Of a DNA stretch of 64,000 nt, positions 9,205-60,641 are shown in pieces. The notes beneath the pieces are model-generated. The model worked only from the letters and a program-made list of their open reading frames with translations. It was not told the DNA's origin and searched no databases. The stretch's first letter is position 1; each line of letters starts with the position of its first letter. This DNA comes from Antedon mediterranea. Taxonomy: Eukaryota > Animalia > Echinodermata. Position numbers and translations under genes: made by a program. The stretch is from assembly GCF_964355755.1 (NCBI RefSeq), contig NC_092678.1:17093881-17157880 (forward strand). The letters are read 5' to 3'.

Positions 9205-9209
9205 TTAAA

Positions 9210-25345: not shown

Positions 25346-25689
25346 TTAACCATAATTTATATATAAATTATCCAAATAATAATGGTATGTCATGGACATA
25401 GTATTTTTGCCATCGTTCACTGTGTAATCGTCCGTCTGTATTTATAAGCATATAACAAATCATTACATTAATTTACAGTTAATAATCAATAATAACAAAG
25501 TAAACATACATTTTTTAAGCAATGAATATCCCTTGAATGATGTTTCAAAGATAGGTTGGTTGACGTTAGCCATACAACTCATTGAGTATGGTATGTTGGC
25601 ATGTACAGCATTGTTCATGATCATCGTTCCATTTTTTAAATGTTTTACTTTTAGTGTTTGTCTTAGAAGTCTTACGGGATACGTCATCA

Positions 25690-33446: not shown

Positions 33447-35249
33447 CTATTTTTGGTGATGTATAAATAAAAACATGATATAGTTATTCACTTAGACCAT
33501 GGATCAAGAAAACAATAATAATTTTCCTGAACAAACTAATTTACAGCCAAAAATTCAGATTGGTGTTTATGTTTGGTAACTGAAAACATTTGGTTTTTTT
33601 TCTTATATTTTTAGTAGTAAAATTTATTAAAACTACAAATGGCCTATTCATTTTTGATGTTTTTTTGGACAATACACATATTATCGAAATATCTTGCCAT
33701 ATCGACATAGTAATTCGATAATGATGTCTTACCTGAATATACGTTCGTACTTTTAAGTCGATTTTATTTAATTAGATTTATTTTTAAATTATTTTATATT
33801 TTATGCGGAATTCATGTTTTTAAGTTAATATGATGGAAGTATGTGACCATCGGACCAATAATCAATATCAATGTAAACTTTACACCGACTTGTAGGTTCA
33901 TGTTTTTTTATATTAGGCCTAATTGTATATATTAATAAATTGCACGCTTTTGACGATGATCTTAGCTTTAAAAAACCAGGTGAATACTTACAATTCGTTT
34001 ATGTTGATCAAGTTTTCAAAAGTACTATCTTTGTAATTGTTTAATTCGTTGCCATATATCAAACTGCAAAAAAAAATATTTTAAAATAAAAATGAGTAAA
34101 AGATTCAGTGGTATTAGGTCATGAAGACATTTCTCATTCTTATGTCTTTAGTGGTTTACCCTGTACGTTACTAACTTGGACGTAACGCACGGACACTGTA
34201 AGTAAATTGACAAATTACGACATAAAAATAGGTCATCCGAACTGTTTCTTGTGATTGGTCAACTCATTTGCGTTTTGCCTACGTCATTGCGTTGCGTCCA
34301 AGTGGACACCTAGATCTGAATTAGGCCCTACAGTAGTACTTTTATCCAGCAATTGAGTGTTTGCTACTCGGCAAGGTAAGGCATACTTCTTGTTTTCATT
34401 TTTTTCGTCTGTTCATTTTAGATATTATATCTAAGCTTATATATATTAATATTATAATTTAAGCTAATTTCATTACAAAACAGACATATTTAACTAAACG
34501 TTATGACGTCATACTGTTATTTAAATATGCTAATAATTATACTTATAACATTTATATATATCCGTGCTATCACTTAGAATATATTATGAGGCTTCAAGTG
34601 GTAAATGGCGGTCATTTTGAATGTATGTTAATTAACCCAATTTCTTTTTGGTAAACTTCAGATATGATGTTCATTTGGACCATATAAAGCAAACAAAACC
34701 AAACACCATTGCTGTTGCAATTTGTTCTAATGTTGACTTATCTTTACTGGACAAAGATACAATGACCTCATGGCAATGTTTTAAAGACGCCGTTGTGTGC
34801 CCATATGCGGGTTCATGTCTATGACCAGGGGACACTGTGTTAAATATGGCAAACATCATATTTGAAAAAGAAAGCAATGTTTAGTGAGAGAAAAGAAACT
34901 GCATGTGTTGTGTATTGCTTTTAGACATAAACAGGTACCACAGTACGAGAATTGCAGGGTGTCCAACGGACGAGTACCATGTATGTATATCGAAAACAAA
35001 GCTATTATAAAATGTATTTTACAGACTATGTCTACGACACATAATCTGTTGTATGACAAGAATTAATGAATAAGTCCGATAATTGTACAGAGCATCAAAC
35101 AACTACATGCATATTATTAAACATTTTGACAAACATAGCGTTTCATACGTATGGTACGTGTACACACTATATAGAAAACATCGAAACGCGACAACAGAAA
35201 AAAAGAAAATAACAGAGACTTGGGACAAGTCTATAGAGTATTAACTTAC

Positions 35250-38432: not shown

Positions 38433-38499
38433 TTATAAACAAGTGAAACATTCGAACACATTTGCTGGTAATGTTGTTATTTGGTTATAGGACAACGAT
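38433..38499 (-). pseudogene. Truncated LRR cassette SLSYNQITTLPANVFECFTCL*
   Basis: ttttcAG acceptor intact; exon 3' end and donor deleted, reads into TAA. Confidence 0.8.
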
Positions 38500-38636
38500 C
38501 TGAAAAGCGTGAAAAATGCAATAAATAAGTTAAGTTTTGGATGAATATTCTTTCTTTGCAAAGGATAAAAAATGAAATTATGTGACGACAATAAGTGTGG
38601 TTTTATTACAACGAAAATATACTATTTTCAAAAGTA

Positions 38637-38703
38637 TTATAAACAAGTGAAACATTCGAACACATTTGCTGGTAATGTTGTTATTTGGTTATTGGCAAAC
38701 CAC
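38637..38703 (-). pseudogene. Truncated LRR cassette WFANNQITTLPANVFECFTCL*
   Basis: Same deletion as 38433-38499, 204 bp away. Confidence 0.8.
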
Positions 38704-40532
38704 CTGAAAATTGTGAAAAATTTAATAAATAATATATACAGTACCAAGGGATAGGATGATAAAACATTATATATTTTATATATAATTTAGAAAAACAAAC
38801 AAAACATAACAATAAATATCTTATTGTGCCAGCAGAGGTCAAGTCCAATTAGGCGTGTCACTCCAGAAGTGAAACCATTACAAGGTATATACAAGGACAT
38901 ACTAATACTTGTTTAATGTTACTTTAGCTCGTATTATCATTATTTGCATGTTTTAGCTGTTTTTCATTAACTTCTTCTACATGATATATAATTATGTTTT
39001 ATCTATATTTTACTGTAATCATGTTGTACTTTGCATATCATATGATGACATAGATCAATATCTACGATACAATACAACCGTTAAATGACGATGATCCATG
39101 TGTTCTGCTATATTTTTACGTTTCGTTATGGCCGCCGATGGTGCTACAGTAACTGAATTAAATAGTCTTGAGTTCGCATAAACAATGCCAAAATAGAAAA
39201 ACTCAAAAAGAGCAAAAAGAAAGATATTACATTTGAACGTATTACGCATGAAAGAGACATATTTCATTGAAGTATTAATTCCTAAAATAAAATAATTGTT
39301 TTTATGAGGAAAAGAGTTAAACTGACGTTTTCATGAGAGGAAGATATATAATATTTGTTCCTCGTGCAAAATAAGCTTATTACAACACTATTACACTAAA
39401 GTATAAATTTACACTTAACTGTGCTTTAAAATAAACATAATTAAAAGCATTAAACAGTATAGGCCTAATAGTTCACCCGAAAAAAATTTCAGATTTGTCC
39501 AAATTCCTTTAAAAAAATCTGACAAATATAAACATGAATAAATAAAAAACAATGTCGTTAATATAAATCAGACTTAAGAATAATGACATCAATTTTCGAT
39601 AATCATAAGGACGAGTTCTCGAATGATTCTCTCATTTGTGCCCATGGAATTGATATTTCCTAAGTTCACCTAACTACGGAGGAATAACGCATTTATATTA
39701 TGATTACATTAATCATAATGTTTAATGATGCTGTGTTATCGAATTGTCTATGTTACTGGAGAAATCGGGATACAGTACCGATAATCAGGTGTGTTAGACC
39801 AGAATACGTTACTCTGGCTTAAAATGGAGGTCTTTGCTTTAACCACGTTCTGAAATGTGTCTGTAAGATTATGTTAGGCAAAAAAAAAACACCTTGTATA
39901 CCATAGCAGCCTGGTGTAGAGACCTATGTATTGCCTTCGCTAAATCCTTTCTTAAACTTGTTCCCACTTATACCTTCTAGAGGAATGTTATCCATAGATA
40001 TAACCCTAATATACTGCTGATTGGATTCGTCATATTATAATTGTAACACAATGTGTCATAAGAACTGTTCGTTATACCATGGTAGTATGTGGTGCAATTA
40101 ATTAAAGAATTATATGATTTGTAAATAGTTTACACAAAGTGCAACACAGTGTGACGTGTTATCTGCTACAATATCTAATGATGACACATTTTTAATAATT
40201 ATGTAAATTCTCATTTAATAAAACACTTATAATAACAAATTACCGTATTAAACGTACAAATCAAAGTATACAAACAATAAGTATATACAGTACCAACGGA
40301 AATTACGATAAAAAAGTATCTATTTTTTAATTTCGATATACAAAGAAAAAATAACAACAAAATCTCTATATTGTGCCAACAGAGGCCAAAAAGGCTTATG
40401 TCCAATTAGGCGTGTCACTCTGACAGTGAAACAATGTCAAGTTATAATTGATATAATACTAATTTTATGTTACTTTATCTCGTATTATCATTATTTGCAT
40501 GTTTTAGCTGTTTTTCATTAACTGTCTTTGCA

Positions 40533-40784
40533 ACCATCCTCTTCATAAGGATATTATCGGCTCCGTTATCGTTAGAAGTGGTAGGATGAGGACGGTGAAT
40601 GCGCAGACGGACCGTTACAAGTACTCGTTCTACCCAGCTGGGATAAGGCATTATAACAAAACATTTGTTAGATAGTCCTCGTTATATTTATATTTATTTT
40701 AGGCAAGCCAATGTTTATGAGCACTGTAATTTCCATTATTATTTTGGACAATAAATGAATCTGTATCTGTATCTGTATCTGTAT
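40533..40784 (+). mobile_element. 5'-truncated Rex1/Babar-type LINE 3' end
   Basis: HPLH...RSGRMR...TDRYKYSFYPAGIRHYN, AATAAA, (CTGTAT)n tail; absent from paralogous units at ~56752 and ~60862. Confidence 0.8.
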
Positions 40785-42162
40785 AATTACAATGTTTTAT
40801 CTAGATTAACTGTAATCATGTTGTACTTTCCATATCATATGATTTCTCGTATTATCATTATTTGCATGTTTTAGCTGTTTTTCATATGATTTCTAGATGT
40901 ATTTCAATATCTACTATACAATACAACCGTTAAATGACGATGATCCATGTATTCTGCTATATTTTTATTTTTCATTATGGCCGCCGATGGTGCTACAGTA
41001 ACTGAATTAAAGAGACAAAACAATGCCAAAATAGAAAAACTCAAAAAGAGCAAAAAGAAAGATATTACATTTGAACGTATTAAGCATGAAACAGACATAT
41101 TTCATAAAAGTATTAATTCCTAAAACAAAATAATTGTTTTTATGTTTAACTCTATGCCTAATAGAGTTAAACTGACGTTTTTATGAGATGAAGATATATA
41201 CTATTTGTTCCACGTGCACAATAAGCTTATAAAACTATTGCAGATTATACGTGAATCGGACCGGTGACGAGTCGGTGACAAACCGAACGGATCATCCAGG
41301 AGTTCTGAAACGTCTGGCCAAGTGCGCTCTCTTTGCGCAGTATTATACGGAGGCGTGTCTATTTTTGTTTTCGTATCTAATTTTGGCTTTAAAAACATGT
41401 CAGCCCAAAATAATCGCTACCCCTGGATCCGCCCCGTCGGAATATTGTCGATATAAAATGATGGAGGTTCAGACGTTCTGTGGTAGGCCTACATTTAAAT
41501 TGTATTATTTGTATTCCCTCTTTAAACTTCATCTTAATTTCAATAAAATAATATCAATTAAGTAATATTGTTTACTTAGAAGTGTGCCAGTTATTCAGCA
41601 CTGAAGAAAACAAAATCAGAAAAATGTAAACACATGTTACCAGGTTTTTTTAAAACATTAATAAAGCTAAGTGTGTTAATTAATGACATGTAAAGAACAT
41701 TTTAGCATGAGGAAGTGAAAATATGGAGGGAAAGAAAACATAAAGTGTAGACACATATATCACCTCACAAGCAATCTATTGCTGACCCAGTGTGAAGCCA
41801 GAAATCAAGAGTTGTTCCTGCTCCCCAATTATTGTGGTCTCTTTATTTATAAAACTTGAAAAGCAGAAAAAAGAGGAGGAGGTGTATGTTTGTTTGTTGG
41901 CAGACTATAACGCTGGTTCAGATTTTAAGTTAAGTTTATCTTACGGACGGATAACGCTAATATTGTACGTACCACCACATTAGGTAACCGATGCGCCCTC
42001 ATTATGACGTTTTTTATAAGAGAAATTTACAAACCATGTGTTGCGCGTGCGAATAAAGAACAAGTGCAGCTATTCCACCATACGGAGGGAAAGATAACCA
42101 ATGCCTCTCATAATAACATTATTTTTCATTTTAATAATATTTACTAATAATGTTAATAACAA

Positions 42163-43223
42163 CTAGATTTGAACTCGTAACTATGGACGAGTTTGGTTAT
42201 CCGCAGCGAAAATGCCACGTGTACGTCATACTTTAGAATATTGCGCACAGAAAAACGATTATGCCATTGAAAAAATGTTAGTGTGCTCTCTATTATATGT
42301 CACGTCTAAGTATATAGAGTATACACTATATATCTCTATACGTACTACATACAGTGCAGAATAGGTGAAAATACCGGGACCCGCATTTTCATCCAATTTT
42401 TACCATGATGATGTCTTCAAAATGAAACACGTAGATAGCAATTTTGGAAGGAAATTATCCGAGCAACAACATATCAACGTGTTGAATAAATTTGGATACG
42501 TAGAATACGGAAGCGCGCTCTTTTAAATGTCATGAACTATGACGCCAAATATGAAATGACTACTGTTATAATTGAACTGGCCATATGATGACGTCACAAC
42601 ATTCGATTCGCATAATTTGTACATGAATTCATATTGTACAATTCAACAGCTTCCAGAAAACGTTTTAATCATGAGTATCACTTTTTATTCTGAGGAGCTA
42701 TAATAAATTTAAATTTATTGGAATGATGAAAAAAAGTAACCAAAGTTATTCACGCTTTTGAACATGATGAAGTCATAACAATTTTAAAAATGGTAAATCA
42801 TGCGAAAGATAATTGATTGACTTAGACAATATAAACATATGGGGGAAAATGGAATATGGATAAGTGGAGATGCGCTCTATTAAATGTGATGAGCTATGAC
42901 AAAAGAGACAAAGATCCTATATTTTATATTCGAGTGGCCATACGATGACGTCACAATGTCTAGTTAGCCATATTGATACATGATCCGATATCAACAACTC
43001 ATCTACTTCCAGAATATGTAAAAAAAAAACTTCACCTTGTAGTTTAGAAACTATGACTGTTTAAAAAAAGTCATCATTTTGACGATTTTTTTTACTTTTT
43101 CATAAAAAACGGGCACAAATTGTCCAATTCGACGTGCTCGTATGACGTGATTTTAATTCGAAATTATTTGAAAGCTGGGAAAATTACTAGAAAAGGCTGG
43201 AAAAACATAAATCACGCGAAAAA
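42163..43223 (-). mobile_element. 5'-truncated Helentron-type element, paralogue of 36156-38312 without the MITE
   Basis: CTAG and hairpin at 42163; truncation at AATCACGCGAAAA identical to the other copy. Confidence 0.8.
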
Positions 43224-43364
43224 AATAACATTTACTAATAATGATAATAATAATTATAGGAATAGGGCAAAGGGTAAAACATAAAATGATGTGACAATAA
43301 GTGTGGTTATATTACAACGAAAATATACTATTTTCAAAAGTATGATAAACAAGAGCAAACACTC

Positions 43365-43436
43365 AGTTCTGTCAATGATGTCAAAACATCAAACACATTT
43401 GCTGTTAATGTAGTTATTTGGTTATTGTACAAGTAC
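43365..43436 (-). pseudogene. LRR cassette with deleted donor GT: YLYNNQITTLTANVFDVLTSLTEL
   Basis: 72-bp frame and acceptor intact, but followed by GAGTGT instead of GTGAGT. Confidence 0.8.
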
Positions 43437-44454
43437 CTGAAAACCGTGAAAAAATTCAATAAAGAAGTACAGTATATATACAGTACCAAAGAATAGTACG
43501 ATAAAAATGATCTATTTATTAATTTAGAAATACTTTCCATATCATATGATTTCTGGATGTAGATGTGTTCTGCTATATTTTTACGTTTGATATAACATGA
43601 TAGAGGTTCAGACGTTCTGTGGTATATTTATTATTGTTTTATTTGTATGTTCCCGGTAAACTTCATCTTAATTTCAAATATAATATTATCAATAAAGTAA
43701 TATTGTTTACTTAAGCGTGGTTCCCACTAGAACGCAACGCAACGTATCGACGCAAACTGCTGTATTGCGTAATCACAAGTGGGAACCGACGACGCTACAA
43801 TAGACAGGTTCCATTTCTCAAAAAACGGCCTAGAAAACGAATCAAGAAGCATTTTTGGGTAGAAGCTGGGATCCACTTGATTTAGGATATTTCGACCTCG
43901 CTGATTACGAATATGGCGGATCCCAAGCGAAATTCGGCCATCTAAGCCCTTAATTTGCATAATTAAAAATGGCGGCCATTTTTTATAATTACCCTATATC
44001 TCGAGAACCACTAGTCACAGGTAATTAATTTTGGTCTCAAAATGTTTTAAATATATGTTTTTATATTCACTTTAATGACACATTTTCTCAAAAAATGGAT
44101 GCAAGTCTTATTTATGCCATTTTGACCTTTGACCTTGATATATATTTATTATAATGAAATGTTTTTACAAAAAATGGCCGATTCTACAACTATTGACCTT
44201 TGAACTATTAGTCAAATATAATAATATAATAATAATAAAACTTTGAAAATTGTGGTCTTATGAATTTTGTTTTCTTTTTAAATTGTTTAAAACATGTGTG
44301 TTTCTATCTAATGGCATATTTTGTACAAGAATGGCCGATAGTATGGTTATTGACCTTTAAACTACAGCATAGGCCTACTGTATACTAAATATATTATAAT
44401 TGCATAACTATGAAATTATTTATACACAATAATAATTAGTAAAATTATAAAATT

Positions 44455-44965
44455 CACTGCCATCAAATATGATGTGTTATGATTTATATAGATTAAAAAA
44501 AAATTGAACACGCAAGTTACATTTGTTGAAATTTGAAATTACCTGCCATCAATATGATGGAGTATGATTATAGATTTTTTTTAATGTGAACATGTCAGCT
44601 ACATTTGGAAATTACCTGCCATCAATATGATGGATTATGATTATAGATTTAAAAAAGAATTTGAACACGTAAGCTACATTTGAAAATTACCTGCCATCAA
44701 TATGATGGATTATGATTATAGATTTAAAAAAGAATTTGAACACGTCAGCTACATTTGGAAATTTGGAAATTTGGAAATTACCTGCCATCAATATGATGGA
44801 TTATGATTGTATAGTACCTGCCATCAATATGATGGATTATGATTATAGATTTAAAAAAGAATTTGAACACGTAAGCTACATTTGAAAATTACCTGCCATC
44901 AATATTATGGATTATGATTGTATAGATTTAAAAGAAAATGTGAACACGTAAGCTACATTTGGAAT
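44455..44965. repeat. ~75-bp tandem repeat inside the foldback arm (mirrored at ~46480-46985)
   Basis: Repeated TTACCTGCCATCAATATGATGGATTATGATT with a small internal hairpin. Confidence 0.85.
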
Positions 44966-44981
44966 GAACATGTTAAGGGCA

Positions 44982-46090
44982 TCAGTTAAGATCATTCATG
45001 CAAAGGTTTCCGTCATCTTTAGCGTTTTTACAGCGGCATAAAGCTGTACATGGTAGTTTTGACTTCTTGCACCTACATCTATTGGTTATGCATCGTGTCT
45101 TGTATCCACAATAAATCATCTCTAACAAAGCAGTAGGAATAGCTTCATTTTTCAGAAGCACTGGTTGAAGTTTACCATTAGATAGCTCCCAACCAAAATC
45201 TGTTGGTGATGGCAAATGCTGGATTGGCGATACAGCTTTTTTCCATACGAGTGCTTGGAAGTGTGCTCTTTTTATATGTTGGTGCACTGCATCGCTTGTT
45301 GGAGGTAATGCGTCTGGTTTTGTCTGTTTTTTTTAAAGCCCGGACTTCATTGGTACTTTTAACTTGACCAACACCGTAAACGTAGCAAATGAATCTTTCC
45401 GATTTCATAATAACTTGGTCACTGATAGGTTTTCTCCCAGGTCTTTAATTAGTTCATAATGTTTTTTTAATACTTCCCATGCCGATGCCTTTGAGTGACC
45501 ACTTAGATATGAGCAGGGAAGAGTTAAATTACTGTATGTATGTATTAATGTAATTTAACTCTTCCCTGGATATGAGGTAGTATCGCATCCACTAATGGTG
45601 TGGAATGGAATCAGTGCTTTTGCATAACCCTCGGGCAAGGCTTGAAAAATGTTTTTTATAGATACTTTCTTTTTTAGATGTCCCTGTCATCATTCATTTG
45701 GATACCATGCTTTGGTAGTGAGACACTAGAATCACTATTACGTCTGTATCATCCCTAGAAGCAACTACAACTGTGTCGTATCGGACATTGGCAGCATGAC
45801 AAGTCTCGTGTCCGATTCTTCATGATCTGCGACCAGAGACAACGTATTATTCGTGTAGACTTTTGATGATTTAACAACTGATTCTTTCATAAATCCACCA
45901 GCTGTGACAATTTCTTTGTCTATAGGAGCTTGACGAATCAACTCCTCTGATAGAAATCGTGCCAGATCTGCTTTATTATCTTGTAATGCCAAAAAGTTTG
46001 GCAGCGGTATTTCACCACTTTCTATAATTCGACGAATTGGTCTCTGTGTTTTGGTTCATCTTTGTCTGGTGGTGTCCTTTATCGACAGTT
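44982..46090 (-). pseudogene. Fragmented transposon-associated gene with PIN/FEN1-like nuclease motifs and a C-terminal Cys-rich (CXC-like) region
   Basis: NKADLARFL, DHEESDTRL, DDTDV, FHTISGCDTTS, HIKRAHFQ..W, PSPTDFGW, C..KTRC..NRCRC....LPCTALCRC across frameshifts. Confidence 0.7.
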
Positions 46091-48583
46091 TTAAGTTAGG
46101 CATGCCATGTTAAAAAAAACCAAAACCGGGCATTACCTCCAACAAGCGATGCAGTGCACCAGCATATTAAAAGAGCACACTTCCAAGCACTCGTACTGAA
46201 AACAGCTGTATCGCCAATCCAGCATTTGCCATCACCAACAGATTTTGGTTGGGAGCTATCTAATGGTAAACTTCAACCAGTGCTTCTGAAAAATGAAGCT
46301 ATTCCTACTGCTTCGTTAGAGATGATTTATTGTGAATGCAAGACACGATGCATAACCATATAGATGTAGGTGCAAGAAGTCAAAACTACCATGTACAGCT
46401 TTATGCTGCTGTAACCACGCTAAAGATGACGGAAACCTTTGCATGAATGATCAAAACTGATGCCCTTAACATGTTCATTCCAAATGTAGCTTACGTGTTC
46501 ACATTTTCTTTCAAACCTATACAATCATAATCCATCATATTGATGGCAGGTAATTTCCAAATTTCCAAATGTAACTGACGTGTTCAAATTCTTTTTTAAA
46601 TCTATAATCATAATCCATCATATTGATGGCAGGTACTATACAATCATAATCCATCATATTGATGGCAGGTAATTTCCAAATTCCTGAATGTAGCTGACGT
46701 GTTCAAATTCTTTTTTAAATCTACAATCATAATCCATCATATAGATGGCAGGTAATTTTCAAATGAAGCTTACGTGTTCAAATTCTTTTTTAAATCTATA
46801 ATCATAATCCATCATATTGATGGCAGGTAATTTCCAAATGTAGCTGACATGTTCACATTTTTAAAAATCTATAATCATACTCCATCTTATTGATGGCAGG
46901 TAATTTCAAATTTCAAATTTCAACAAATGTAACTTGCGTGTTCAATTTTTTTTTTAAATCTATATAAATCATAACACATCATAATAATTTTACTAATTAT
47001 TATTGTGTATAAAATTTTCATAGTTATGCAATTATATTATATTCAGTATACAGTAGGCCTATGCTGTAGTTTAAAGGTCAATAACCATACTATCGGCCAT
47101 TCTTGTACAAAATGTGCCATTAGACTGGATAGAAACACACATGTTTTAAACAATTTAAAAAGAAAAAAAAATTCATAAGACCACAATTTTCAAAGTTATA
47201 TTATTATTATATTATTATATTTGAAAAATAGTTCAAAGGTCAATAGTTGTAGAATCGGCCATTTTTTGTAAAAACATTTCATTATAATAAATATGAATGT
47301 ATAGTTTCTGAACAATTTGAGCCCTATTTCGTGTCTCTCCGATTATTGGTTACTGAGATACGATAAATCAAGGTCAAAGGTCAAAATGTCAGAAATAAGA
47401 CTTGCATTCATTTTTTGAGAAAATGTGTCATTAAAGTGAATATAAACACATATATTTAAAACATTTTGAGACCAAAATTAATTATCTGTGACTAGTGGTT
47501 CTCGAGATATAGGGTAATTATAAAAAATGGCCGCCATTTTTAATTATGCAAATTAAGGGCTTAGATGGCCGAATTTCGCTTGGGATCCGCCATATTCGTA
47601 ATCAGCGAGGTCGAAATATCCTAAATCAAGTGGATCCCAGCTTCTACCCAAAAATGCTTCTTACACCATATTTCAGAGGAAATAGAACTTGTCTACAATG
47701 CTGCAAAGCCGCAGGTTTGATTTCACGCAGGTTAGGGAAAACACAATTATCGGAAGGGCATTTTCTTACGCTGCGTAGGTTGCGTTACGTTGCGTCGCTA
47801 GAAGTTAGAAGAGTGCCAGTCATTCAGCACTGAAGAAAACAAAATAAGAAAAAATGTAAACACATGTTACCAGGTTTTTTTAAAACAAGAGTGTTAATTA
47901 ATGAGATGTAAAGCACATTTTAGCATGAGGAAGTGAAAATATGGAGGGAGAGAAAACATAAAGTGTAGACACAGATATCACCTCACAAGCAATCTATTGC
48001 TGACCCAGTGTGAAGGCCGAAATCAAGAGTTGTTCCTGCTCCCCAATTTATTTATAAAACTTGAAAAGCAGAAAAAAGATGAGGAGGTGTATGTTTGTTT
48101 GTTGCCAGATGCCTATAACGCTGTTTCAGATTTTAAGTTAAGTTTATCTTACGGACGGATAACGCTAATAATGTACGTACCACAACATTAGGTAACCGAT
48201 ACGCCCCCATTATGATAAGTGCGAATAAAGAAAAAGTGCTATTCCACTGTACGGAGGGATAGCTACCCGATGCCTCTCATAATAATATTATTTTTCATTC
48301 AATAACATTTACTAATAATGATAATAATAATTTACTTTAAAACAAACGAATACAAGTAGGTCTATCACTACACACAATACAACTACATACAGAAGCTTGT
48401 GTTAAAATAAAGGTTTATGGATCAATCATAATCAAACAAAAACGGTCATATTATATTATTTTAGTTTTGGATGAATATTCTGTCTTTGCAAAGAGTAATG
48501 AAATGATGTGACAAAAAGTGTGGTTATCTTACAACGAAAATATATTATTTTCAAAAGTATGATAAACAATAGAAAGCACTCAA

Positions 48584-48655
48584 AGTACTGTCAATGATGT
48601 CAAACCATCAAACACGTTTTCTGATATTGTAGTTATTTGGTTATCATACAACCAC
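48584..48655 (-). pseudogene. LRR cassette with GT>TT donor mutation: WLYDNQITTISENVFDGLTSLTVL
   Basis: 72-bp frame and acceptor intact; followed by TTGAGT. Confidence 0.8.
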
Positions 48656-51600
48656 CTGAAAATCGTGAAAAAATGCATTAAATAAGTATATATACAGTAC
48701 AAAAGGATAGTACGATAAAAAAAATGATTTTTTAAATTTCGAAATACAAACAAAATATAACAACACATATCTATATTGTGCCAACAGAGGCCATAGACGG
48801 CTTATATCTAATTAGGCGTGTCACTCCAGCAGTGAAACCATTAGGCCTACAAGGTATATACAAGGACATAATAATATTTGTCTAATGTTACTTTAGCTCG
48901 TATTATCATTATTTGCATGTTTTAGCTGTTTTTCTTTCACAGCTTTTACATGATATAACTATGTTTTATCTGGATTTACTGTAATCATGTTGTAATTTCC
49001 ATATCATATGATTTCTGGATGTAGATTAATATCTACGATACAATACAACCGTTAAATGACGATGATCCATGTATTCTGCTATATTTTTATTTTTCATTAT
49101 GGCCGCCGATGTTGCTACAGTAACTGAATTAAATACCGTAATCGCATAAACAATGTCAAAATAGAAAAACTCAAAAAGAGCAAAAAGAAAGATATTACAT
49201 TTGATCGTATTACGCGTGAAACAGACATATTTCATTGAAGTATTAATTCCTAAAATAAAATAATTGTTTTTATAAGGCATAGCGTTAAACTGACGTTTTC
49301 ATGAGAGGAAGATATACAATATTTGTTTCTGGTGCACAATAAGCATATTACAACACTATTACACTAAAGCATAAAGTTACACTTAACTGTGCCTTAACAC
49401 CGTTTAACAGTTCACCTGATACAAAATTCTGATTTGTCCAAATTTCTTTTTAAAAAATCTGACAAATATAAACATGAAGAAATAAAAAGCATGCAATGTC
49501 ATTAATATACATCAGACTTATTATAATGACATCAATTTTCGATAATCATAAGGACGAGTTCTCGAATGATTCTCTCATTTGTGCCGATGGAATTGATATT
49601 TCCTAAGTTCACCTAACTACGGAGGAATAACGCTGTTCATGTACGTACCACACTACATTATATAACAGATGCCTCACATAATGACGTTTTCATGAGAGGA
49701 AGATATATTACATTTGTTCCGTGTGAACAATAAGCTTATTACAACACTATTGCAAATCATATATGAAATGAAACAATATGTCATAGTTCACTACTGTAGT
49801 AATGGATGGATAACGCAAACGTATACGTACCACCACACTATATAGATAACAAATGGCTCTTATAATGACGTTTTCTTAGAGGAAGATATAATAAATATTT
49901 GTTCCGCGTGCAAAATAAGCCTATAACACTATTGTAGATTATACGTGAATCGAAACAATTATGTCGAGTGTGCCTATTCCTTCTTGTTTTATTGTGGACA
50001 ACCGCATAGAGAAACTTTAACATTTAACGCCATACGTCTGGATTGTCTGTGATTTTAAACGATTGTCAATGCTATCTCGATATATGACAATTATTTCAAT
50101 TTGGTAATACAGAATCTCAAATGTATCACATGTGGTTCTTGTATCATTAGGTTAAGAATAAACATTTAAAATAATTATATAATTTCTCATTTAATAAAAC
50201 ATACCAGTTATACAACAAACTACGTACAGGAGCTCGAGCTTATGTTAAAGTAGTACATATTTTTTATCATTTATATTAAGAATACATTAATCATAATGTT
50301 TAATGATGCTGTATTATCGAATTTTAATGTTACTGGAGAAATCGAGATACAATACCGATAATCAGGTGTGTTAGACCAGAATACGTTACTCTGGCTTAAA
50401 ATGGAGGTCTTTGCTTTAATTACGTTCTGAAATGTGTCTGTAAGATTATGTTAGGCAAAAACAACACCTTGTATACCATAGCAGCCTGGTGTAGAGACCT
50501 ATATATTGCCTACGCTAAATTCTTTCTTAAACTTGTTCCCACTTATACCTTCTAGAGGAATGTTATCCATAGATATAATCCTAATATACTGCTGATTGGA
50601 TTCGTCATTTTATAATTGTAACACAATGTGTCATAAGAACTGTTCGTTATACCATGGTAGTATTTGCTACAGCATGTATAAGCTCTGAAAACTCCAAAAT
50701 GACCAATCCTGAGTTACAGCTACGACGGTGCTACAGTAACTGAATTAAATAGTCTTGTTCGCAAACAATGCCAAAAACTTAAAACGAGCAAAAAGAAGAT
50801 ATTACATTTGAACGTATTAGGCCTATACATGAAACAGACATATTCCGTAGAAGTATTAATTAATAATTAATTCCTAAAATAAAATAATTGTTTTTTTGAG
50901 GCATTGAGTTAAAATTACGTTTTCATGAGAGGAAGAAAATATAATATTTGTTCCTCGTGCAAAATAAGCTTATTACAACACTGTTGCAGATTATACGTGA
51001 ATCGGCGACGATTGTACGGAGGCCTGTCTATTTTTGTTTTCGTATCTAATTTTGGCTTTCAAAAATGGCAGCGCAAAGCAATCGCTATCCCTGGATCCGA
51101 CCCGTCGTATTATTTTGATATACAATGATAGAGGTTCAGACGTTCTGTAGTATATTTAAATTGTATTATTTGTATGTTCCCTTTAAACTTCATCTTAATT
51201 TCAAATAGAAAACTATCAATAAAGTAATATTGTTTACTTAGAAGTGTGCCAATTATCCAGCATAGAAGAAAACAAAATCGGACAAAATTTAAACACATGT
51301 TACCATGTTTTTTTAAACATTATTAAAGCAAAGTGTGTTAATTATTGAGATGTAAAGCACATAGGCTGATTTTAGCATGATGAAGTGCAAATATGGAGGG
51401 AGGGGAAATATAAAATGTAGACACATATAACCTCACACGCAAGCTATTACTGACACAGTGTGAAGGCCGAAATCAAGAGACTAGTTGTTTGACGGGATGT
51501 TCCTGGTCCCCAATTATTGTGATCCCTTATTTTAGAACTTGAAAAGCAGAAAAAAGAGGAGAATGTGTAGGCCTATGTTTGTTTGTTGCCAGATGCCTAT

Positions 51601-52071
51601 AACGCTGGTTCAGATTTTAAGTTAAGTTTATCTTACTGACGGATAACGCTAATAATGTACCTACCACCACATTAGGTAACCGATGCGCCCCCATTATGAC
51701 ACGTGCGAATAAAGAAAAATAATTGCTATTCAACCGGACGGAGGGATAGGTAACCGATGCCTCTCTTAATAACATTATTTTTTATTTAATAACATTTACT
51801 AATAATGATAATAATAATTTGCTAAAACAAACGAATACAAGTAGGTCTATCATTACACACAATACAACTACATACAGGAGCTTGTGTTAAAATAAAGGTT
51901 TAGTGATCAATAAAAATCAAACAAAAACAGGCATATTATATTATTTTAGTTTTGGATGAATATTCTGTCTTTGCAAAAAGTAAAAATGAAATGATGTGAC
52001 AAAAAGTGTAGTTACATTACAAAGAAAATATACTATTTTCAAAAGTATGATAAACAACAGAAAGCACTCAC

Positions 52072-52143
52072 AGTTCTGTCAACGATGTCAAACCATCAAA
52101 CACGTTTTCTGATATTGTAGTTATTCTGTTACTGCCCAACCAC
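52072..52143 (-). CDS. Gene R LRR cassette: WLGSNRITTISENVFDGLTSLTEL
   Basis: 72 bp, phase 2-2, ttccAG acceptor, GTGAGT donor. Confidence 0.9.
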
Positions 52144-53049
52144 CTGGAAATCGTGAAAAAATGCATTAAATAAGTATATATACAGTACCAAAGGATAGTA
52201 CGATAAAAAACAATTATTTTTTTTAATTTGTAAATACAGAAAAATATAACAACAAATATCTTATTGTGCAAACAGAGGCCAAAAAAAGCTTATGTCTATT
52301 AGGCGTGTCACTCCAGCAGTGAAAACATTACAGGGTAGGCCTATTACAAGGACATAAAAATATTTGTTTAATGTTACTTTAGCTCGTATTATCATTAGTT
52401 GCATGTTTTAGCTGTTTTTCTTTAACTGCTTTTACATGATATAAAGATATTACATTTGATCGTATTACACATGAAACAGACATATTCCGTAGAAGTATTA
52501 ATTCCTAAAATAAAATAATTGTTTTTATGAGGCATAGCGTTAAACTGACGTTTTTATGAGAGGAAGATATATAATATTTGTTCCTCGTGCACAATAAGCT
52601 TATTACAACACTATTACACTAAAGCATAAAGTTACACTTAACTGTGCCTTAACACCGTTTAATAGTTCACCCGATACAAAATTCTGATTTGTCAAAATTT
52701 CTTTAAAAAAAAATCTGACAAATATAAACATGAAGAAATAAAAGCAATGTCATAAGGACGAGTTCTCGAACGATTCTCTCATGCTCATTGCTATTAAACC
52801 GGACGGAGGGATAGGTAACCGATGCCTCTCTTAATAACATTATTTTTTATTTAATAACATTTACTAGTTTAGTTGGTTTAGTGATCAATAAAAATCAAAC
52901 AAAAACAGGCATATTATATTATTTTAGTTTTGGATGAATATTCTGTCTTTGCAAAGAGTAAAAATGAAATGATGTGACAAAAAGTGTGGTTACATTACAA
53001 AGAAAATATACTATTTTCAAAAGTATGATAAACAATAGAAAGCACTCAC

Positions 53050-53121
53050 AGCCCTGTCAATGATGTCAAACCATCAAACACGTTTTCTGATATTGTAGTT
53101 ATTTTGTTACTGCCCAACCCT
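53050..53121 (-). CDS. Gene R LRR cassette: GLGSNKITTISENVFDGLTSLTGL
   Basis: 72 bp, phase 2-2, ttttcAG acceptor, GTGAGT donor. Confidence 0.9.
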
Positions 53122-55217
53122 CTGAAAATTGTGAAAAAATGCATTAAATAAGTATATAAATACAGTACCAAAGGATAGTACGATAAAAAAAAATTATTTT
53201 TTAAATTTGTAAATACAAAAAAATATAACAACAAATATCTTATTGTGCAAACAGAGGCCAAAAAAAGCTTATGTCTATTAGGCGTGTCACTCCAGCAGTG
53301 AAAACATTACAGGGTAGGCCTATATACAAGGACATAAAAATGTTTGTTTAATGTTACTTTAGCTCGTATTATCATTAGTTGCATGTTTTAGCTGTTTTTC
53401 TTTAACTGCTTTTACATGATATAACTATGTTTTATCTAGATTTACTGTAAATATGTTGTAATTTCTTTAATATCTACGATACAATACAACCGTTAAATGA
53501 CGATGATCCATGTATTCTGCTATGTTTTTATTTTTCATTATGGCCGCCGATATTGCTACAGTAACTGAATTAAATAGTCTTGAGTTCGCATAAACAATGT
53601 CAAAATAGAAAAAATCAAAAAGAGCAAAACGAAAGATATTACATTTGATCGTATTACACATGAAACAGACATATTCCGTAGAAGTATTAATTCCTACAAT
53701 AAAATAATTGTTTTTATGAGGCATAGCGTTAAACTGACGTTTTCATGAGAGGAAGATATACAATATTTGTTCCTCGTGCACAATAAGCTTATTACAACAC
53801 TATTACACTAAAGCATAAAGTTACACTTAACTGTGCCTTAACACCGTTTAATAGTTCAACCGATACAACATTCTGATTTGTCCAAATTTCTTTTTTAAAA
53901 AATCTGACAAATATAAACATGAAGAAATAAAAAGCAATGTCATTAATATACATCAGACTTAAGAATAATGACATCAATTTTCGATAATCATAAGGACGAG
54001 TTCTCGAATGATTCTCTCATTTGTGCCGATGGAATTGATATTTCCTAAGTTTACCTAACTACGGAGGAATAGATGCCTCAAATAATAACGTTTTCATGCA
54101 TGAGAGGAAGATATATAGCATTTGTTCCCCGTCAACACTATTTCAAATCCCATGAATCGAAACAATATGTCGAGTGTGCCTATTCCTTCTTGTTCTTATT
54201 CCTCTTGAGAGGAAGATATATAACATTTGTTCCGCGTGCAAAATAAGCTTATAACACTATTGTAGATTATACGTGAATCGAAACAATTATGTTGAGTGTG
54301 CCTATTCCTTCTTGTGTTACTGTGGACAACCGCATAGAGAAACTTTAACATTAACGCCATGCGTCTGGATTGTCTGTGATTTTAAACGATTGTCAATGCT
54401 ATCTCGACATATGACAATTATTTCTATTTGGTAATACAGAATCTCAAATGTATCACATGTGGTTCTTGTATCATTAGGTTAAGAATAAACATTTATAATA
54501 ATTATATAATTTCTCATTTAATAAAACATACCAGTTATACAACAAACTACGTACAGGAGCTCGAGCTTGTGTTAAATTAGTACATATTTTTTATCATTTA
54601 TATTAAGAATACATTAATCATAATGTTTAATGATGCTGTAATATCGAATGTTAATGTTACTTGAGAAATCGAGATAGAATACCGATAATCAGGTGTGTTA
54701 GACCAGAATACGTTACTCCTGCTTAAAATGGAGGTCTTTGCTTTCACCACGTTCTGAAATGTGCCTGTAAGATTATGTTAGGCAAAAACAATACCGTGTA
54801 TACCTAATAGCGGCCTGGTGAGACCTATGTATTGCCTTCGTTAAATCCTTTCTTAAACTTGTTCCCACTTATACCTTTTAGAGGAATGTTATCCATAGAT
54901 AAAACCCTAATATACTGCTGATTGGATTCGTCATATTATAATTGTAACACAATGTGTCATAAGATCTGTTCGTTATACCATGGTAGTATGTGGTGCAATT
55001 AATTAAAGAATTATATGATTTGTAAATATTTTAAACAAAGTGCAACACAGTGTGACGTATTGTCTGCTACAATATCTAATGATTACACATTTTTAATAAT
55101 TATGTAATTTCTCATTTAATAAAACATACCAGTTATAATAACAAATTACCGTATTAAACGTACAAATCAAAGTATAAAAACAATAAGTATATACAGTACC
55201 AACGGAAATTACGATAA

Positions 55218-56539
55218 CTAGATGGTACGCTCGCTTCGCTCGCGTACCATCTAGGTCGTTCCCACAGATGGTTCTCGAATACACAGTAATTTCAGCGTAA
55301 CAAAACTGGCGATTTCAAATGTACGTACCGCAGGACTATAGGCCTATACATTGTCGTTTACAGAAACAAATAAATAGACACGATGATTTATGTAGTCAAC
55401 TAAAATTAGCACCCTGGGAATTACTTCCGAAGGAGAAACTTATCACAAAATGAGTCCAAGTTTTTGATTTGGACTCATTTAAAGAAACCCAATTGGTGTT
55501 TTGTATGTAACATTAGGGTTGAGGGATGGGAAAGCGGATAGGTACAAAGAGGAACAATTTTTAAATATATTCTTTATCCACTCAGTAACGAAATATTTTT
55601 TTCATGTTTTATAGGCCTATAAATAATATACCTCTAAATACAGTAAAACATTTGCGATTTAATACTTTTTTTATTTTATTTATTTATTTATTTCTTTTAA
55701 ATATTCATTGTACACTAATTTTCCCCGTGTATGGCAAGAGATTCCTAATTATATTAGAGAACATTCTTTATTTAGTTTAGTTAAAACTGTCACTGTCATA
55801 ATCGATTGAAATATTAAAGTACCATGTCACGATACACCACTACGACGTTTATATTTGGTAATTATTAATTAATACAAACGTTGAGAAAGAACTGTCAGTA
55901 TAAAGTTTATTTGTATATAATAATGTGTTTATATATCTAACAGTAGAGCCTATCCACAATCTCGCAAGTTTATTCTCAAAGGGCCCATATATTTACCTAC
56001 CGTATGTGTTAAACCAAGGGCTAATAAATTTACCTACAGTACTTGTGTTAAACCAAACTCTGGCAGACTGAGAGATTGGGATGTTCCATTCATCGCAAAT
56101 CAATAGATTTGTATAATCGTATATTAAATCTATCAAAATAGTATTTTTTAAAGAAAATCGGCCTGTCTTCAACATTATGATGGTGTACTCTAGCTGTTCA
56201 ACCGGTTTTCAGCTATTAAAAACAATTATCGTAGGAGGAGATAGGAAAATGCGAAGCCTCCTCGCATTTTTGTGGCGGGTATTTTTCAAGACGGACATCC
56301 ATTATACAGTGTATACCACGGTCGGAAAACACCCCTATTTGGGGCAAATCTTGGAACCTAAATTCGTTTTAACCGTCAATAACTTATTATCTAACTTAAT
56401 TTAATTAGTAAACAGGGTTACATCAGGTGGTTAAAATCAGTACCGAAAGTACGAACCAACTTTATATACCATCGAGTAAAAATTATAGAAGTAAGGCGCG
56501 ATTTACCGAATTTTGCCCTTACGTAAATTTATATATAGA
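55218..56539 (-). mobile_element. Non-autonomous Helitron, 1322 bp
   Basis: A|TC start, hairpin ATGGTACGC...GCGTACCAT, CTAG|T end, no TSD; empty sites at ~40290 and ~60515. Confidence 0.9.
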
Positions 56540-58356
56540 TAAAGTATCTATTTTATTAATTTCGAAATACTAAGAAAAAATAACAAAATGTCTATATTGT
56601 GCCAACAGAGGCCAAAAAGGCTTATTTCCAACTAGGCGTGTCACTCTGACAGTGAAACAATTACAAGGTATAATTGATATAATACTAATTTAATGTTACT
56701 TTATCTCGTATTATCATTTCATGTTTTAGCTGTTTTTCATTAACTGTCTTTGCATGATTATAACAATGTTTTATCTAGATTGACTGTAATCATGTTGTAC
56801 TTTCCATATCATATGATTTCTCGTATTATCATTATTTGCATGTTTTAGCTGTTTTTCATATGATTTCTAGATGTATTTCAATATCTACGATACAATACAA
56901 CCGTTAAATGACGATGATCCATGTATTCTGCTATATTTTTATTTTTCATTATGGCCGCCGATGGTGCTACAGTAACTGAATTAAAGAGACAAAACAATGC
57001 CAAAATAGAAAAAACTCAAAAAGAGCAAAAAGAAAGATATTACATTTGAACGTATTACACATGAAACAGACATATTTCATAGAAGTATTAATTCCTAAAA
57101 CAAAATAATTGTTTTTATGTTTAACTCTATGCCTCATAGAGTTAAACTGACGTTTTCATGAGAGGAAGATAATTATATACTATTTGTTCCACGTGCACAA
57201 TAAGCTTATAAAACTATTGCAGATTATACGTGAATCGGACCGGTGACGAGTCGGTGACAAACCGAACGGATCATCCAGGAATTCTGAAACGTCTGGCCAA
57301 GTGCGCTCTCTTTGCGCAGTATTATACGGAGGCGTGTCTATTTTTGTTTTCGTATCTAATTTTGGCTTTAAAAACATGTCAGCCCAAAACATTCGCTACC
57401 CCTGGATCCGCCCCGTCGGAATATTGTCGATATAAAGTGATGGAGGTTCAGACGTTCTGTGGTACATTTAAATTGTATTATTTGTATTTCCTCTTTAAAC
57501 TTCATCTTAATTTCAATATAATAATATCAATTAAGTAATATTATTTACTTAGAAATGTGCCAGTTATTCAGCACTGAAGAAAACAAAATCAGAAAAATGT
57601 AAACACATGTTACCAGGTTTTTTTAAAACATTAATAAAGCTAAGTGTGTTAATTAATGAGATGTAAAGCACATTTTAGCATGAGGAAGTGAAAATATGGA
57701 AGGAAAGAAAACATAAAGTGTAGAAACAGATATCACTTCACAAGCAATCTATTGCTGACCCAGTGTGAAGCCAGAAATCAAGAGTTGTTCCTGCTCCCCA
57801 ATTATTGTGGTCCCTTTATTTATAAAACTTGAAAAGCAGAAAAAAGAGGAGGAGGAGGTGTATGTTTGTTTGTTGCCAGATGCCTATAAAGCTGGTTCAG
57901 AGTTTAAGTTATGTTTATCTTACGGACGGATAACGCTAATAATGTACGTACCACAACATTAGGTAACCGATACGCCCCCATTATGATACGTGCGAATAAA
58001 GAAAAAGTGCTATTCCACTGTACGTAGGGATAGCTACCCGATGCCTCTCATAATAATATTATTTTTCATTCAATAACATTTAATAATAATGATAATAATA
58101 ATTTACTTTAAAACAAACGAATACAAGTAGGCCTCATTACACACAATACAACTACAAACATGAGCTTGTGTTAAAAGAAAGGTTTAGGGATCAATCATAA
58201 TCAAACAAAAACGGGCATATTATATTATTTTAGTTTTGGATGAATATTCTGTCTTTGCAAAGAGTAAAAAATGAAATGATGTGACAATAAGTGTGGTTAT
58301 CTTACAACGAAAATATATTATTTTCAAAAGTATGATAAACAATAGAAAGCACTCAC

Positions 58357-58428
58357 AGCCGTGTCAATGATGTCAAACCATCAAACACGTTTTCTGATAT
58401 TGTAGTTATTTTGTTACTGCCCAACGCT
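58357..58428 (-). CDS. Gene R LRR cassette: ALGSNKITTISENVFDGLTSLTRL
   Basis: 72 bp, phase 2-2, ttttcAG acceptor, GTGAGT donor. Confidence 0.9.
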
Positions 58429-60641
58429 CTGAAAATTGTGAAAAAATGCATTAAATAAGTATATAAATACAGTACCAAAGGATAATACGATAAAAAAAAA
58501 ATTATTTTTTAAATTTGTAAATACAAAAAAATATAACAACAAATATCTTATTGTGCAAACAGAGGCCAAAAAAAGCTTATGTCTATTAGGCGTGTCACTC
58601 CAGCAGTGAAAACATTACAGGGTAGGCCTATATACAAGGACATAAAAATGTTTGTTTAATGTTACTTTAGCTCGTATTATCATTAGTTGCATGTTTTAGC
58701 TGTTTTTCTTTAACTGCTTTTACATGATATAACTATGTTTTATCTAGATTTACTGTAAATATGTTGTAATTTCTTTAATATCTACGATACAATACAACCG
58801 TTAAATGACGATGATCCATGTATTCTGCTATATTTTTATTTTTCATTATGGCCGCCGATATTGCTACAGTAACTGAATTAAATAGTCTTGAGTTCGCATA
58901 AACAATGTCAAAATAGAAAAAATCAAAAAGAGCAAAACGAAAGATATTACATTTGATCGTATTACACATGAAACAGACATATTCCGTAGAAGTATTAATT
59001 CCTACAATAAAATAATTGTTTTTATGAGGCATAGCGTTAAACTGACGTTTTCATGAGAGGAAGATATAAAATATTTGTTCCTCGTGCACAATAAGCTTAT
59101 TACAACACTATTACACTAAAGCATAAAGTTACACTTAACTGTGCCTTAACACCGTTTAATAGTTCAACCGATACAACATTCTGATTTGTCCAAATTTCTT
59201 TTTAAAAAAATCTGACAAATATAAACATGAAGAAATAAAAAGCAATGTCATTAATATACATCAGACTTAAGAATAATGACATCAATTTTCGATAATCATA
59301 AGGACGAGTTCTCGAATGATTCTCTCATTTGTGCCGATGGAATTGATATTTCCTAAGTTTACCTAACTACGGAGGAATAGATGCCTCAAATAATAACGTT
59401 TTCATGAGAGGAAGATATATAGCATTTGTTCCCCGTCAACACTATTTCAAATCCCATGAATCGAAACAATATGTCGAGTGTGCCTATTCCTTCTTGTTCT
59501 TATTCCTCTTGAGAGGAAGATATATAACATTTGTTCCGCGTGCAAAATAAGCTTATAACACTATTGTAGATTATACGTGAATCGAAACAATTATGTCGAG
59601 TGTGCCGATTCCTTCTTGTTTTACTGTGGACAACCGCATAGAGAAACTTTAACATTAACGACATGCGTCTGGATTGTCTGTGATTTTAAACGATTGTCAA
59701 TGCTATCTCGACATATGACAATTATTTCAATTTGGTAATACAGAATCTCAAATGTATCACATGTGGTTCTTGTATCATTAGGTTAAGAATAAACATTTAT
59801 AATAATTATATAATTTCTCATTTAATAAAACATACCAGTTATACAACAAACTACGTACAGGAGCTCGAGCTTGTGTTAAATTAGTACATATTTTTTATCA
59901 TTTATATTAAGAATACATTAATCATAATGTTTAATGATGCTGTAATATCGAATGTTAATGTTACTGGAGAAATCGAGATAGAATACCGATAATCAGGTGT
60001 GTTAGACCAGAATACGTTACTCTGGCTTAAAATGGAGGTCTTCGCTTTAACCACGTTCTGAAATGTGTCTGTAAGATTATGTTAGGCAAAAACAATACCT
60101 TGTATGCCTTAGCAGCCTGGTGTTGAGACCTATGTATTGCCTTCGCTAAATCCTTTCTTAAACTTGTTCCCACTTATACCGTTTAGAGGAATGTTATCCA
60201 TAGATATAACCCTAATATACTGCTGATTGGATTCGTCATTTTATAATTGTAACACAATGTGTCATAAGAACTGTTCGTTATACCATGGTAGTATGTGGTG
60301 CAATTAATAAAAGAATTATATGATTTGTAAATATTTTACACAAAGTGCAACACAGTGTGACGTATTGTCTGCTATAATATCTAATGATTACACATTTTTA
60401 ATAATTATGTAATTTCTCATTTAATATACCCCTTATAATAACAAATTACCGTATTAAACGTACAAATCAAAGTATAAAAACAATAAGTATATACAGTACC
60501 AACGGAAATTACGATAAAAAAGTATCTATTTTATTAATTTCAAAATACAAAGGAAAAGTAACAACAAAATATCTATATTGTGCCAACAGAGGCCAAAAAG
60601 GCTTATGTCCAATTAGGCGTGTTACTCTGACAGTGAAACAA

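What the first reader, a model, noticed from the sequence alone, without database searches (positions are those of the whole stretch)
38433..58428. Accordion array of single-LRR exon cassettes varying mainly at the ligand-binding face
Seen: seven homologous phase 2-2 cassettes, each duplicated with its introns. Starts read ALGSNK, GLGSNK, WLGSNR, WLYDNQ, YLYNNQ, WFANNQ, SLSYNQ and ends T-R/G/E/V/E-L, while ITTISENVFDGLTSL is unchanged in the four 5'-most copies. 58357 and 53050 differ at just 2 nt, both non-synonymous and both at variable sites, amid nearly identical introns. Established: these x positions of LxxLxLxxNxL line the concave binding surface, as in agnathan VLR modules and brown-algal exon-per-LRR genes. 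Inference: a germline diversification system for an invertebrate LGR-like receptor, using unequal crossover or conversion through conserved introns and possibly combinatorial skipping of frame-neutral exons.
Basis: partly seen in the sequence, partly recalled or inferred. Interest (0 to 1): 0.88.

Follow-up and report, generated by a model that had tools for sequence, protein, structure and literature searches.

The report
Half-dead LRR exon array, feather star
A gene, likely from a feather star, has repeatedly copied and recombined one small binding-module exon; four of the seven copies have lost their splice signal, and the copies differ mostly at the predicted binding face, a known way for fast-evolving recognition genes to change rather than a shown diversity machine.

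Summary
The array is real but only partly alive. Only the three 5'-most (58428, 53121, 52143) keep an AG...GTGAG frame. The other four have lost the 5' splice donor (GT>TT; 2-nt deletion; a shared 29-nt deletion in two). Three more units have no exon. Recombination is shown: unit 58428 matches 53121 at 68 of 69 informative sites up to the exon end, then 48655 at 8 of 11. Among the four 5' copies every amino-acid change falls in five concave-face x codons (9 events against 1.3 expected from introns; 5 against 0.7 for the three intact copies). No 7TM or LDLa exon supports 'LGR-like'. A neighbouring CUB-LRR gene's closest relatives are Antedon (feather star) models. Best reading: germline birth and death of LRR exons, likely with diversifying selection, as in brown-algal ROCO genes. 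Transcription of this locus was not tested.

The parts
58357..58428 (-). LRR cassette 1, intact 72-nt phase 2-2 exon (ALGSNK...LTR); chimeric unit
   Evidence: Pfam LRR_8 E=3.7e-05, below the curated cut-off
53050..53121 (-). LRR cassette 2, intact 72-nt exon (GLGSNK...LTG)
52072..52143 (-). LRR cassette 3, intact 72-nt exon (WLGSNR...LTE)
48584..48655 (-). LRR cassette 4, open frame but donor reads TT instead of GT; likely skipped
43365..43436 (-). LRR cassette 5, donor GT removed by a 2-nt deletion; likely skipped
   Evidence: a contig of run X1 shows 2 letters left out at the donor
38647..38703 (-). LRR cassette 6, truncated: 29-nt deletion removes exon end and donor
38443..38499 (-). LRR cassette 7, same 29-nt deletion; identical to cassette 6 over 89 nt across the deletion, divergent on both sides
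   Evidence: a loose end of this type in run X6 of organism B
   Evidence: Pfam LRR_8 E=0.0054
33992..34063 (-). further intact 72-nt phase 2-2 LRR-like exon (LIYGNE...), last recognised exon of the gene
   Evidence: no Pfam hit
52875..55217 (.). duplicated unit carrying cassette 2; 97.7% identical to 58181-60517
58181..60517 (.). duplicated unit carrying cassette 1
40276..40532 (.). acceptor-side unit flank with no exon beside it (likewise at 55190/56545 and 60482)
43801..47695 (.). foldback-type inserted element between cassettes 4 and 5 (about 1.5-kb inverted arms, TAG...CTA ends, CAA on both sides)
15214..15555 (-). CUB exon of a separate downstream gene B (context; gives the taxon)
   Evidence: Pfam CUB E=2.1e-17; 77% to Antedon mediterranea XP_071959928.1

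Best explanation
This is part of the LRR region of a gene, likely of a feather star, in which a 72-nt one-repeat exon and its flanking introns were copied in tandem and recombined, four of seven copies then lost their splice donor, and selection likely favoured new residues on the predicted concave binding face. Shown: duplication of exon-plus-intron units, a chimeric unit, a conversion-like tract inside two copies, donor loss in four copies, complete exon loss in three units, and amino-acid changes confined to concave x codons in the four young copies. Inferred: that crossover and conversion act in the germline over generations; that donor-less copies are skipped, which keeps the frame because all exons are phase 2-2, so repeat number can rise and fall without killing the gene; that the product is an extracellular recognition protein under pressure to change specificity. 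The rest of the protein is not known from this window.
For: Cassette anatomy and donors. Recombination: informative sites among four copies run AAAAA then CCCCCCC (permutation p=0.0025); 58428 follows 53121 at 58 of 59 acceptor-side and 10 of 10 exon sites, then 48655 at 8 of 11; against 52143 it follows 48655 at 48 of 56 donor-side sites. Concave excess: 12 of 18 nt variable against 2 of 54 elsewhere in the exon (both silent) and 47 of 438 in introns; three intact copies 6 of 18 against 20 of 442, Fisher p=2e-4; after merging adjacent changes 9 events against 1.32 expected (p=1e-5) and 5 against 0.70 (p=8e-4); pN concave 0.39, pN scaffold 0, pS scaffold 0.04. All 5 splice-intact LRR exons of the gene are open, and all 4 defective ones are broken at the donor, the pattern expected if a working gene tolerated only skippable losses. 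Contigs of runs X1 and X6 carry several other letters at codon 23 (17 and 23 contigs at 58361), which suggests more related cassettes than the window holds, also in organism B. Same design in brown-algal ROCO genes (PMC3341825 section 15, PMC11378527 section 11).
Against: The sample is 3 to 4 related, recombining sequences, so sites are not independent. The same 18-nt mask slid along the 5' intron reached 10 variable sites at one cluster. Dead copies 38703 and 38499 differ at 5 of the first 11 exon nt and nowhere in the next 89 nt, which a conversion boundary explains without selection. pS inside the concave codons is also high (0.31), as expected from multi-nucleotide patches. Purifying selection on the scaffold is not significant (P(0)=0.058 and 0.22). 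One of six concave positions (codon 22) never varies. No 3' continuation (LRRCT, membrane anchor or 7TM) was found after 33992, so the gene may be truncated. In neighbouring gene B a duplicated LRR exon pair differs at 3 non-synonymous sites, only 1 of them concave.
Confidence: 0.68

Rival explanations
1. A decaying pseudogene or truncated duplicate: the units were multiplied by ordinary segmental duplication, and short conversion patches from older paralogues, not selection, put the differences at the exon ends.
For: 4 of 7 cassettes dead, 3 exon-less units, a 3.9-kb insertion, no recognisable 3' end; conversion tract in the dead pair; scaffold conservation not significant; the 58428/53121 exon is no more diverged than its unit (p=0.33).
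Against: Changes sit at both exon ends in five x codons and skip the interleaved L, N and I codons, whose codons are unchanged in the four young copies; none of the 5 splice-intact exons has a stop or frameshift.
Confidence: 0.19
2. A dedicated diversifier: donor-less cassettes are kept as sequence donors that rewrite the binding-face codons of the live exons by conversion, in the germline or in immune cells, a splice-based counterpart of VLR assembly or chicken pseudo-V conversion (the latter recalled).
For: Conversion-like tracts end inside exons; all 4 dead copies keep their acceptor and first codons; the 29-nt deletion type appears in a second organism, so it may be old (one loose end); multi-nucleotide patches at x codons.
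Against: No live exon in the window carries a patch that matches a dead copy and nothing else (codon table); the spacing is irregular (132 to 5235 nt) and interrupted by an insertion; a 2026 review states that echinoderm recognition diversity is germline-encoded rather than somatically rearranged (PMC13428168, passages).
Confidence: 0.1
3. The array is an assembly artefact (haplotypes or repeats written out in tandem).
For: No whole genome was held to check; runs of organism A hold only 0.51 to 0.55 of the sampled words.
Against: Units differ by 2 to 25% and are mosaic; a contig of X1 matches 189 nt of unit 58428 with no difference and another shows the 2-nt donor deletion.
Confidence: 0.03

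Closest known systems
Brown-algal ROCO (LRR-ROC-COR) genes with shuffled type I LRR exons (Zambounis et al. 2012, PMC3341825; Teng et al. 2024, PMC11378527)
   Same: One LRR per 72-nt phase-2 exon; inactivated copies (lost splice sites, stops) in the introns; recombination within the gene; fast change at concave-face sites.
   Different: Animal host; repeat of the extracellular 24-residue class (xLxxNxITTxxxNVFDGLTSL); no ROC-COR seen; no inverted cassette on the other strand; units of several kb; splice variants not shown here.
Ambulacrarian LGR/GRL101 receptors (Veenstra 2021, PMC8286064)
   Same: [quoted passage not shown]
   Different: The paper finds one orthologue per receptor in each species; no 7TM or LDLa exon of this gene was seen, so it is not filed as an LGR.
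Agnathan variable lymphocyte receptors (PMC11335541, PMC4731796)
   Same: 24-residue repeat fitting the LRRV consensus; VLR chains rank high in the PDB search; variation on the concave face.
   Different: VLR cassettes flank one incomplete germline gene and are copied in somatically; here cassettes are spliced-type exons inside a gene. LGR4, SLIT2, LRRC15 and LRRTM score in the same range, so the match marks the repeat class only.
Crab EsVLR2 (PMC10045472, abstract only) and amphioxus VLR-like LRR-only proteins (PMC4731796)
   Same: Invertebrate LRR recognition proteins with varying repeat number; crab isoforms arise by alternative splicing.
   Different: No duplicated exon-plus-intron units or dead copies are mentioned in what I read; the relationship to this gene was not tested.

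Membership tests
Exon-shuffled one-LRR-per-exon arrays (brown-algal ROCO type; works-like test) | Each LRR on one 72-nt phase-2 exon | tested here: met
   3 intact cassettes plus 34063 (72 nt) and 35324 (75 nt)
Exon-shuffled one-LRR-per-exon arrays (brown-algal ROCO type; works-like test) | Inactivated LRR exons inside the introns | tested here: met
   4 of 7 cassettes lack the donor
Exon-shuffled one-LRR-per-exon arrays (brown-algal ROCO type; works-like test) | Recombination between units within the gene | tested here: met
Exon-shuffled one-LRR-per-exon arrays (brown-algal ROCO type; works-like test) | Diversifying selection at concave-face sites | tested here: inconclusive
   Excess over introns is significant but rests on 3 to 4 recombining copies; conversion patches are not excluded; no codon-model test was run
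Exon-shuffled one-LRR-per-exon arrays (brown-algal ROCO type; works-like test) | LRR exons also on the non-coding strand | tested here: not met
   All cassette-length blastn hits lie in the coding orientation
Exon-shuffled one-LRR-per-exon arrays (brown-algal ROCO type; works-like test) | Alternative splicing of LRR exons | not tested
   No RNA was laid on the junctions of this locus
ROCO family (membership) | ROC-COR domains in the same gene | tested here: inconclusive
   None among the window's ORFs and exon candidates; the gene's ends are not in view
Agnathan VLR | 24-residue LRRV-type repeat | tested here: met
   consensus in PMC4731796
Agnathan VLR | Incomplete germline gene flanked by cassettes that are copied in, not spliced | tested here: not met
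   Cassettes carry acceptor and donor signals and sit in line with other exons
Agnathan VLR | Somatic, deaminase-dependent assembly in lymphocytes | not testable with these tools
   needs cell-type-resolved DNA
LGR / GRL101 receptors | Rhodopsin-type 7TM after the LRRs | tested here: inconclusive
   No long or 7TM-motif frame in the window; the gene's 3' end was not located
LGR / GRL101 receptors | LDLa modules or LRRNT before the LRRs | not testable with these tools
   The 5' part lies beyond position 64000 or is absent; no genome held

The most novel reading that the evidence does not exclude
A feather-star recognition gene that keeps splice-dead LRR cassettes as a donor library and rewrites the binding-face codons of its live exons by conversion through the conserved exon body, possibly in immune cells: a VLR-like templated diversifier in an echinoderm, built from spliced exons.
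Probability: 0.1. Interest if true: 0.85.

Novelty: new member of a known kind. Interest (0 to 1): 0.42.

Why it matters
It extends the brown-algal pattern of exon-by-exon LRR turnover with a fast-changing binding face to a crinoid. My paper searches listed no description of such an array in crinoids, but the library lacks most subscription journals. The locus records the steps of turnover side by side: a fresh chimera, a point-mutated donor, a deleted donor and empty units. That makes it a usable test case for whether dead LRR exons feed live ones. As it stands it is a candidate fast-evolving recognition gene, not a new immune mechanism.

Tried and rejected
No genome was held, so no genome-wide cassette census. 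No RNA holder is on record among the 9 runs listed; X5 is only a guess at RNA; this is no evidence either way. One X5 contig at depth 2.3 holds two 72-nt LRR units head to tail: a spliced or intronless relative, not this locus, so not used as evidence of its expression. Summed contig depth was not used as copy number. Word-based searches with the CUB and LRRNT exons found nothing. The search with the cassette profile returned 60 generic LRR proteins and no clear family; the GPI-type LRR-only P0029/P0212 from it is an unnamed look-alike only. The Atlas gave generic CUB clusters and a weak LRRNT lead. A cassette motif had 0 matches in metagenome contigs. The idea that the CUB exon belongs to the array gene was rejected: no phase 2-to-1 linking exon was recognised, and a signal-peptide exon sits 1.3 kb upstream of CUB. 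The idea that a repeated segment (60068, 54764, 50437, 39860) is a decayed CUB exon was not supported (tblastn E 6 to 8, no Pfam hit). In-frame rescue donors for the dead copies: only the weak +42 site. No structure was predicted, since single 23-residue exons cannot be folded; the concave assignment rests on the established LRR consensus. PMC11863921, 10.1101/269241, PMC6408891 and PMC6267866 (passages) had no direct bearing. No supplements were read.
Full report
What is there. The sequence is AT-rich animal DNA (GC 0.33). A strict scan for open AG-72-GT phase-2 exons with an LRR start, and blastn of each cassette, finds seven homologous cassettes on the minus strand starting at 58428, 53121, 52143, 48655, 43436, 38703 and 38499. 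Each keeps its acceptor. Only the first three have the donor GTGAG at +72. Cassette 48655 reads TTGAG. In 43436 the GT is deleted. 38703 and 38499 share a 29-nt deletion that removes the exon end and donor, and they read into a stop after 21 codons. The only other in-frame GT in these four is a weak site at +42 present in all seven copies. Two more intact LRR exons follow at 35324 (75 nt) and 34063. Three further copies of the acceptor-side flank have no exon (40284, 55190, 60490). So about ten units hold three live, four donor-less and three empty slots.

Independent support for the anatomy. Public runs were laid on 57900-58800 (4 of the 9 runs listed). Run X1 has a 189-nt contig identical to unit 58428 and a contig with two letters left out at the donor, as in 43436. 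Run X6, of a second organism, has a loose end of the 29-nt deletion type. At 58361 (codon 23) 17 contigs of X1 and 23 of X6 carry other letters, of two kinds. Contigs are graph fragments and give no copy number, but they suggest a larger cassette family than the window shows. X1 may be the window's own source and is then not independent.

Recombination. Among the four 5' copies the informative sites group 58428 with 53121 five times in the acceptor-side intron and exon, then 58428 with 48655 seven times in the donor-side intron (permutation p=0.0025). In three-way alignments 58428 follows 53121 at 58 of 59 acceptor-side sites and 10 of 10 exon sites, then 48655 at 8 of 11; against 52143 it follows 48655 at 48 of 56 donor-side sites. 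The switch lies in the first 40 nt or so past the donor. This is what unequal crossover between neighbouring units leaves behind. Cassettes 38703 and 38499 are identical for 89 nt across their shared deletion, but differ at 5 of 30 nt before the exon, 5 of the first 11 exon nt and again downstream. I read this as a conversion tract that starts inside the exon and carried the deletion.

Where the copies differ. The concave positions were taken beforehand from the LRR consensus LxxLxLxxNxL (established knowledge; concave face as binding surface in PMC4731796 and PMC3341825): exon codons 1, 3, 4, 6, 22 and 23. In the four 5' copies 12 of these 18 nt vary, against 2 of the other 54 exon nt (both silent) and 47 of 438 intron nt. 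In the three intact copies it is 6 of 18 against 20 of 442 (p=2e-4). With adjacent changes merged there are 9 events against 1.32 expected and 5 against 0.70. pN is 0.39 at concave codons and 0 at the scaffold.

Results against a strong reading. One intron cluster reaches 10 of 18 under the same mask. The dead pair shows that a conversion boundary alone yields a variable start and constant middle. Silent change inside the concave codons is also raised (0.31), which points to multi-nucleotide patches. Scaffold conservation is not significant (P(0)=0.058 and 0.22). Codon 22 never varies. In gene B a duplicated LRR exon pair (8105, 1442) differs at three non-synonymous sites, one of them concave. 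Selection is therefore likely but not proven.

What gene, what animal. The repeat is of the common extracellular 24-residue class: a profile of nine exons hits designed LRRs, VLRs, LRRTM, LGR4, LRRC15 and SLIT2 in the PDB with overlapping scores (73 sequences). The protein search gave only generic LRR proteins. No LRRCT, anchor or 7TM-type exon was recognised after 33992, and the 5' part is not in the window, so 'LGR-like' is unsupported. A separate gene B follows: a signal-peptide exon (16877-16817), CUB (15555-15214; Pfam E=2.1e-17), an LRRNT-like exon (13598-13463) and LRR exons at 8105 and 1442. Its CUB is 77% identical to Antedon mediterranea XP_071959928.1 and 54% to XP_071953545.1, while nearly all other listed hits lie at 26 to 40%. 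The window is thus likely from a feather star close to Antedon.

How it most likely works. Misaligned pairing of the multi-kb units in the germline gives crossovers and conversion tracts (traces shown, timing inferred). New units bring a new repeat or a new mix of flank and exon. Because every exon is phase 2-2, a copy that loses its donor would be skipped without a frameshift, so losses are tolerated (inferred). This fits the pattern that all five splice-intact exons are open and all four defective ones are broken at the donor. Selection likely keeps new residues on the binding face while the scaffold stays uniform (inferred from the counts above). With three live young exons, combinatorial skipping could give at most eight combinations, and none is shown.

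Comparison with what is known. Ectocarpus ROCO genes have one LRR per 72-nt exon, inactivated exons in introns, recombination within genes and positive selection on the concave face (PMC3341825: abstract, passages, section 15). Kelps add phase 2 and splice variants (PMC11378527: abstract, section 11). [quoted passage not shown] VLRs use the same repeat class but copy cassettes somatically into one incomplete gene (PMC11335541 and PMC13428168, passages). A crab VLR-like gene varies by splicing (PMC10045472, abstract). Earlier unchecked notes of this scan report like arrays in octopus, sea squirt, fungi and protists, which suggests a recurrent mode of evolution. The locus works like the brown-algal arrays; it is not a VLR, and ROCO or LGR membership is not shown.

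Verdict. Observation partly confirmed; interpretation partly supported. New member of a known kind, interest 0.42. The boldest reading left open, dead cassettes as a conversion library for live exons, has about 0.1 probability and would deserve 0.85. Whether this locus is transcribed remains open.

Noticed in passing
window 16877-1371 (minus): Separate gene B: signal peptide, CUB, LRRNT-like and LRR exons. Its LRR exons 8105 and 1442 are also a duplicated unit (96% over 117 nt), with an exon-less acceptor relic near 11400 and homologous flank at 6210-6424.
   Followed up: partly
window 43801-47695: Foldback-type element with about 1.5-kb inverted arms, internal 75-nt tandem repeats, TAG...CTA ends, CAA on both sides and a Cys-rich ORF remnant in each arm. 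The ends resemble Academ transposons (recalled, not tested).
   Followed up: partly
window 32492-32356 (minus): Single-copy exon-like stretch with a good acceptor, an ATG at 32431 and a phase-1 donor, encoding a weak signal-peptide-like 25 residues; may start a third gene between the two LRR genes.
   Followed up: no
window 60068, 54764, 50437, 39860 (minus): Repeated segment with an acceptor-like site and a phase-1 open frame of 54 codons in three of four copies (contains VFWS, as the CUB exon does). No Pfam hit; tblastn E 6 to 8. Possibly a decayed exon.
   Followed up: partly
window 20258-21683 (minus), 25776-26129 (minus), 209-739 and 6708-7058 (plus): Broken retroelement-type pieces: RVT_1 E=3.6e-06 and zf-RVT E=3.1e-06 in the first; a coiled-coil ORF and two related ORFs with no firm Pfam family.
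   Followed up: no
window 8575-9208 and 24716-25349: 634-nt inverted pair at 98%, likely two copies of a dispersed element.
   Followed up: no
window 57900-58800, run X5: One low-depth contig holds two LRR units head to tail at a 72-nt period, with Ile at codon 23 and Asn at codon 1, further states at two of the variable positions.
   Followed up: partly
protein P0212: Unnamed 238-residue LRR-only protein (signal peptide, LRRNT, four LRRs, LRRCT, hydrophobic tail) with repeats 50 to 65% like the cassettes; a possible architecture for the array gene, untested.
   Followed up: no
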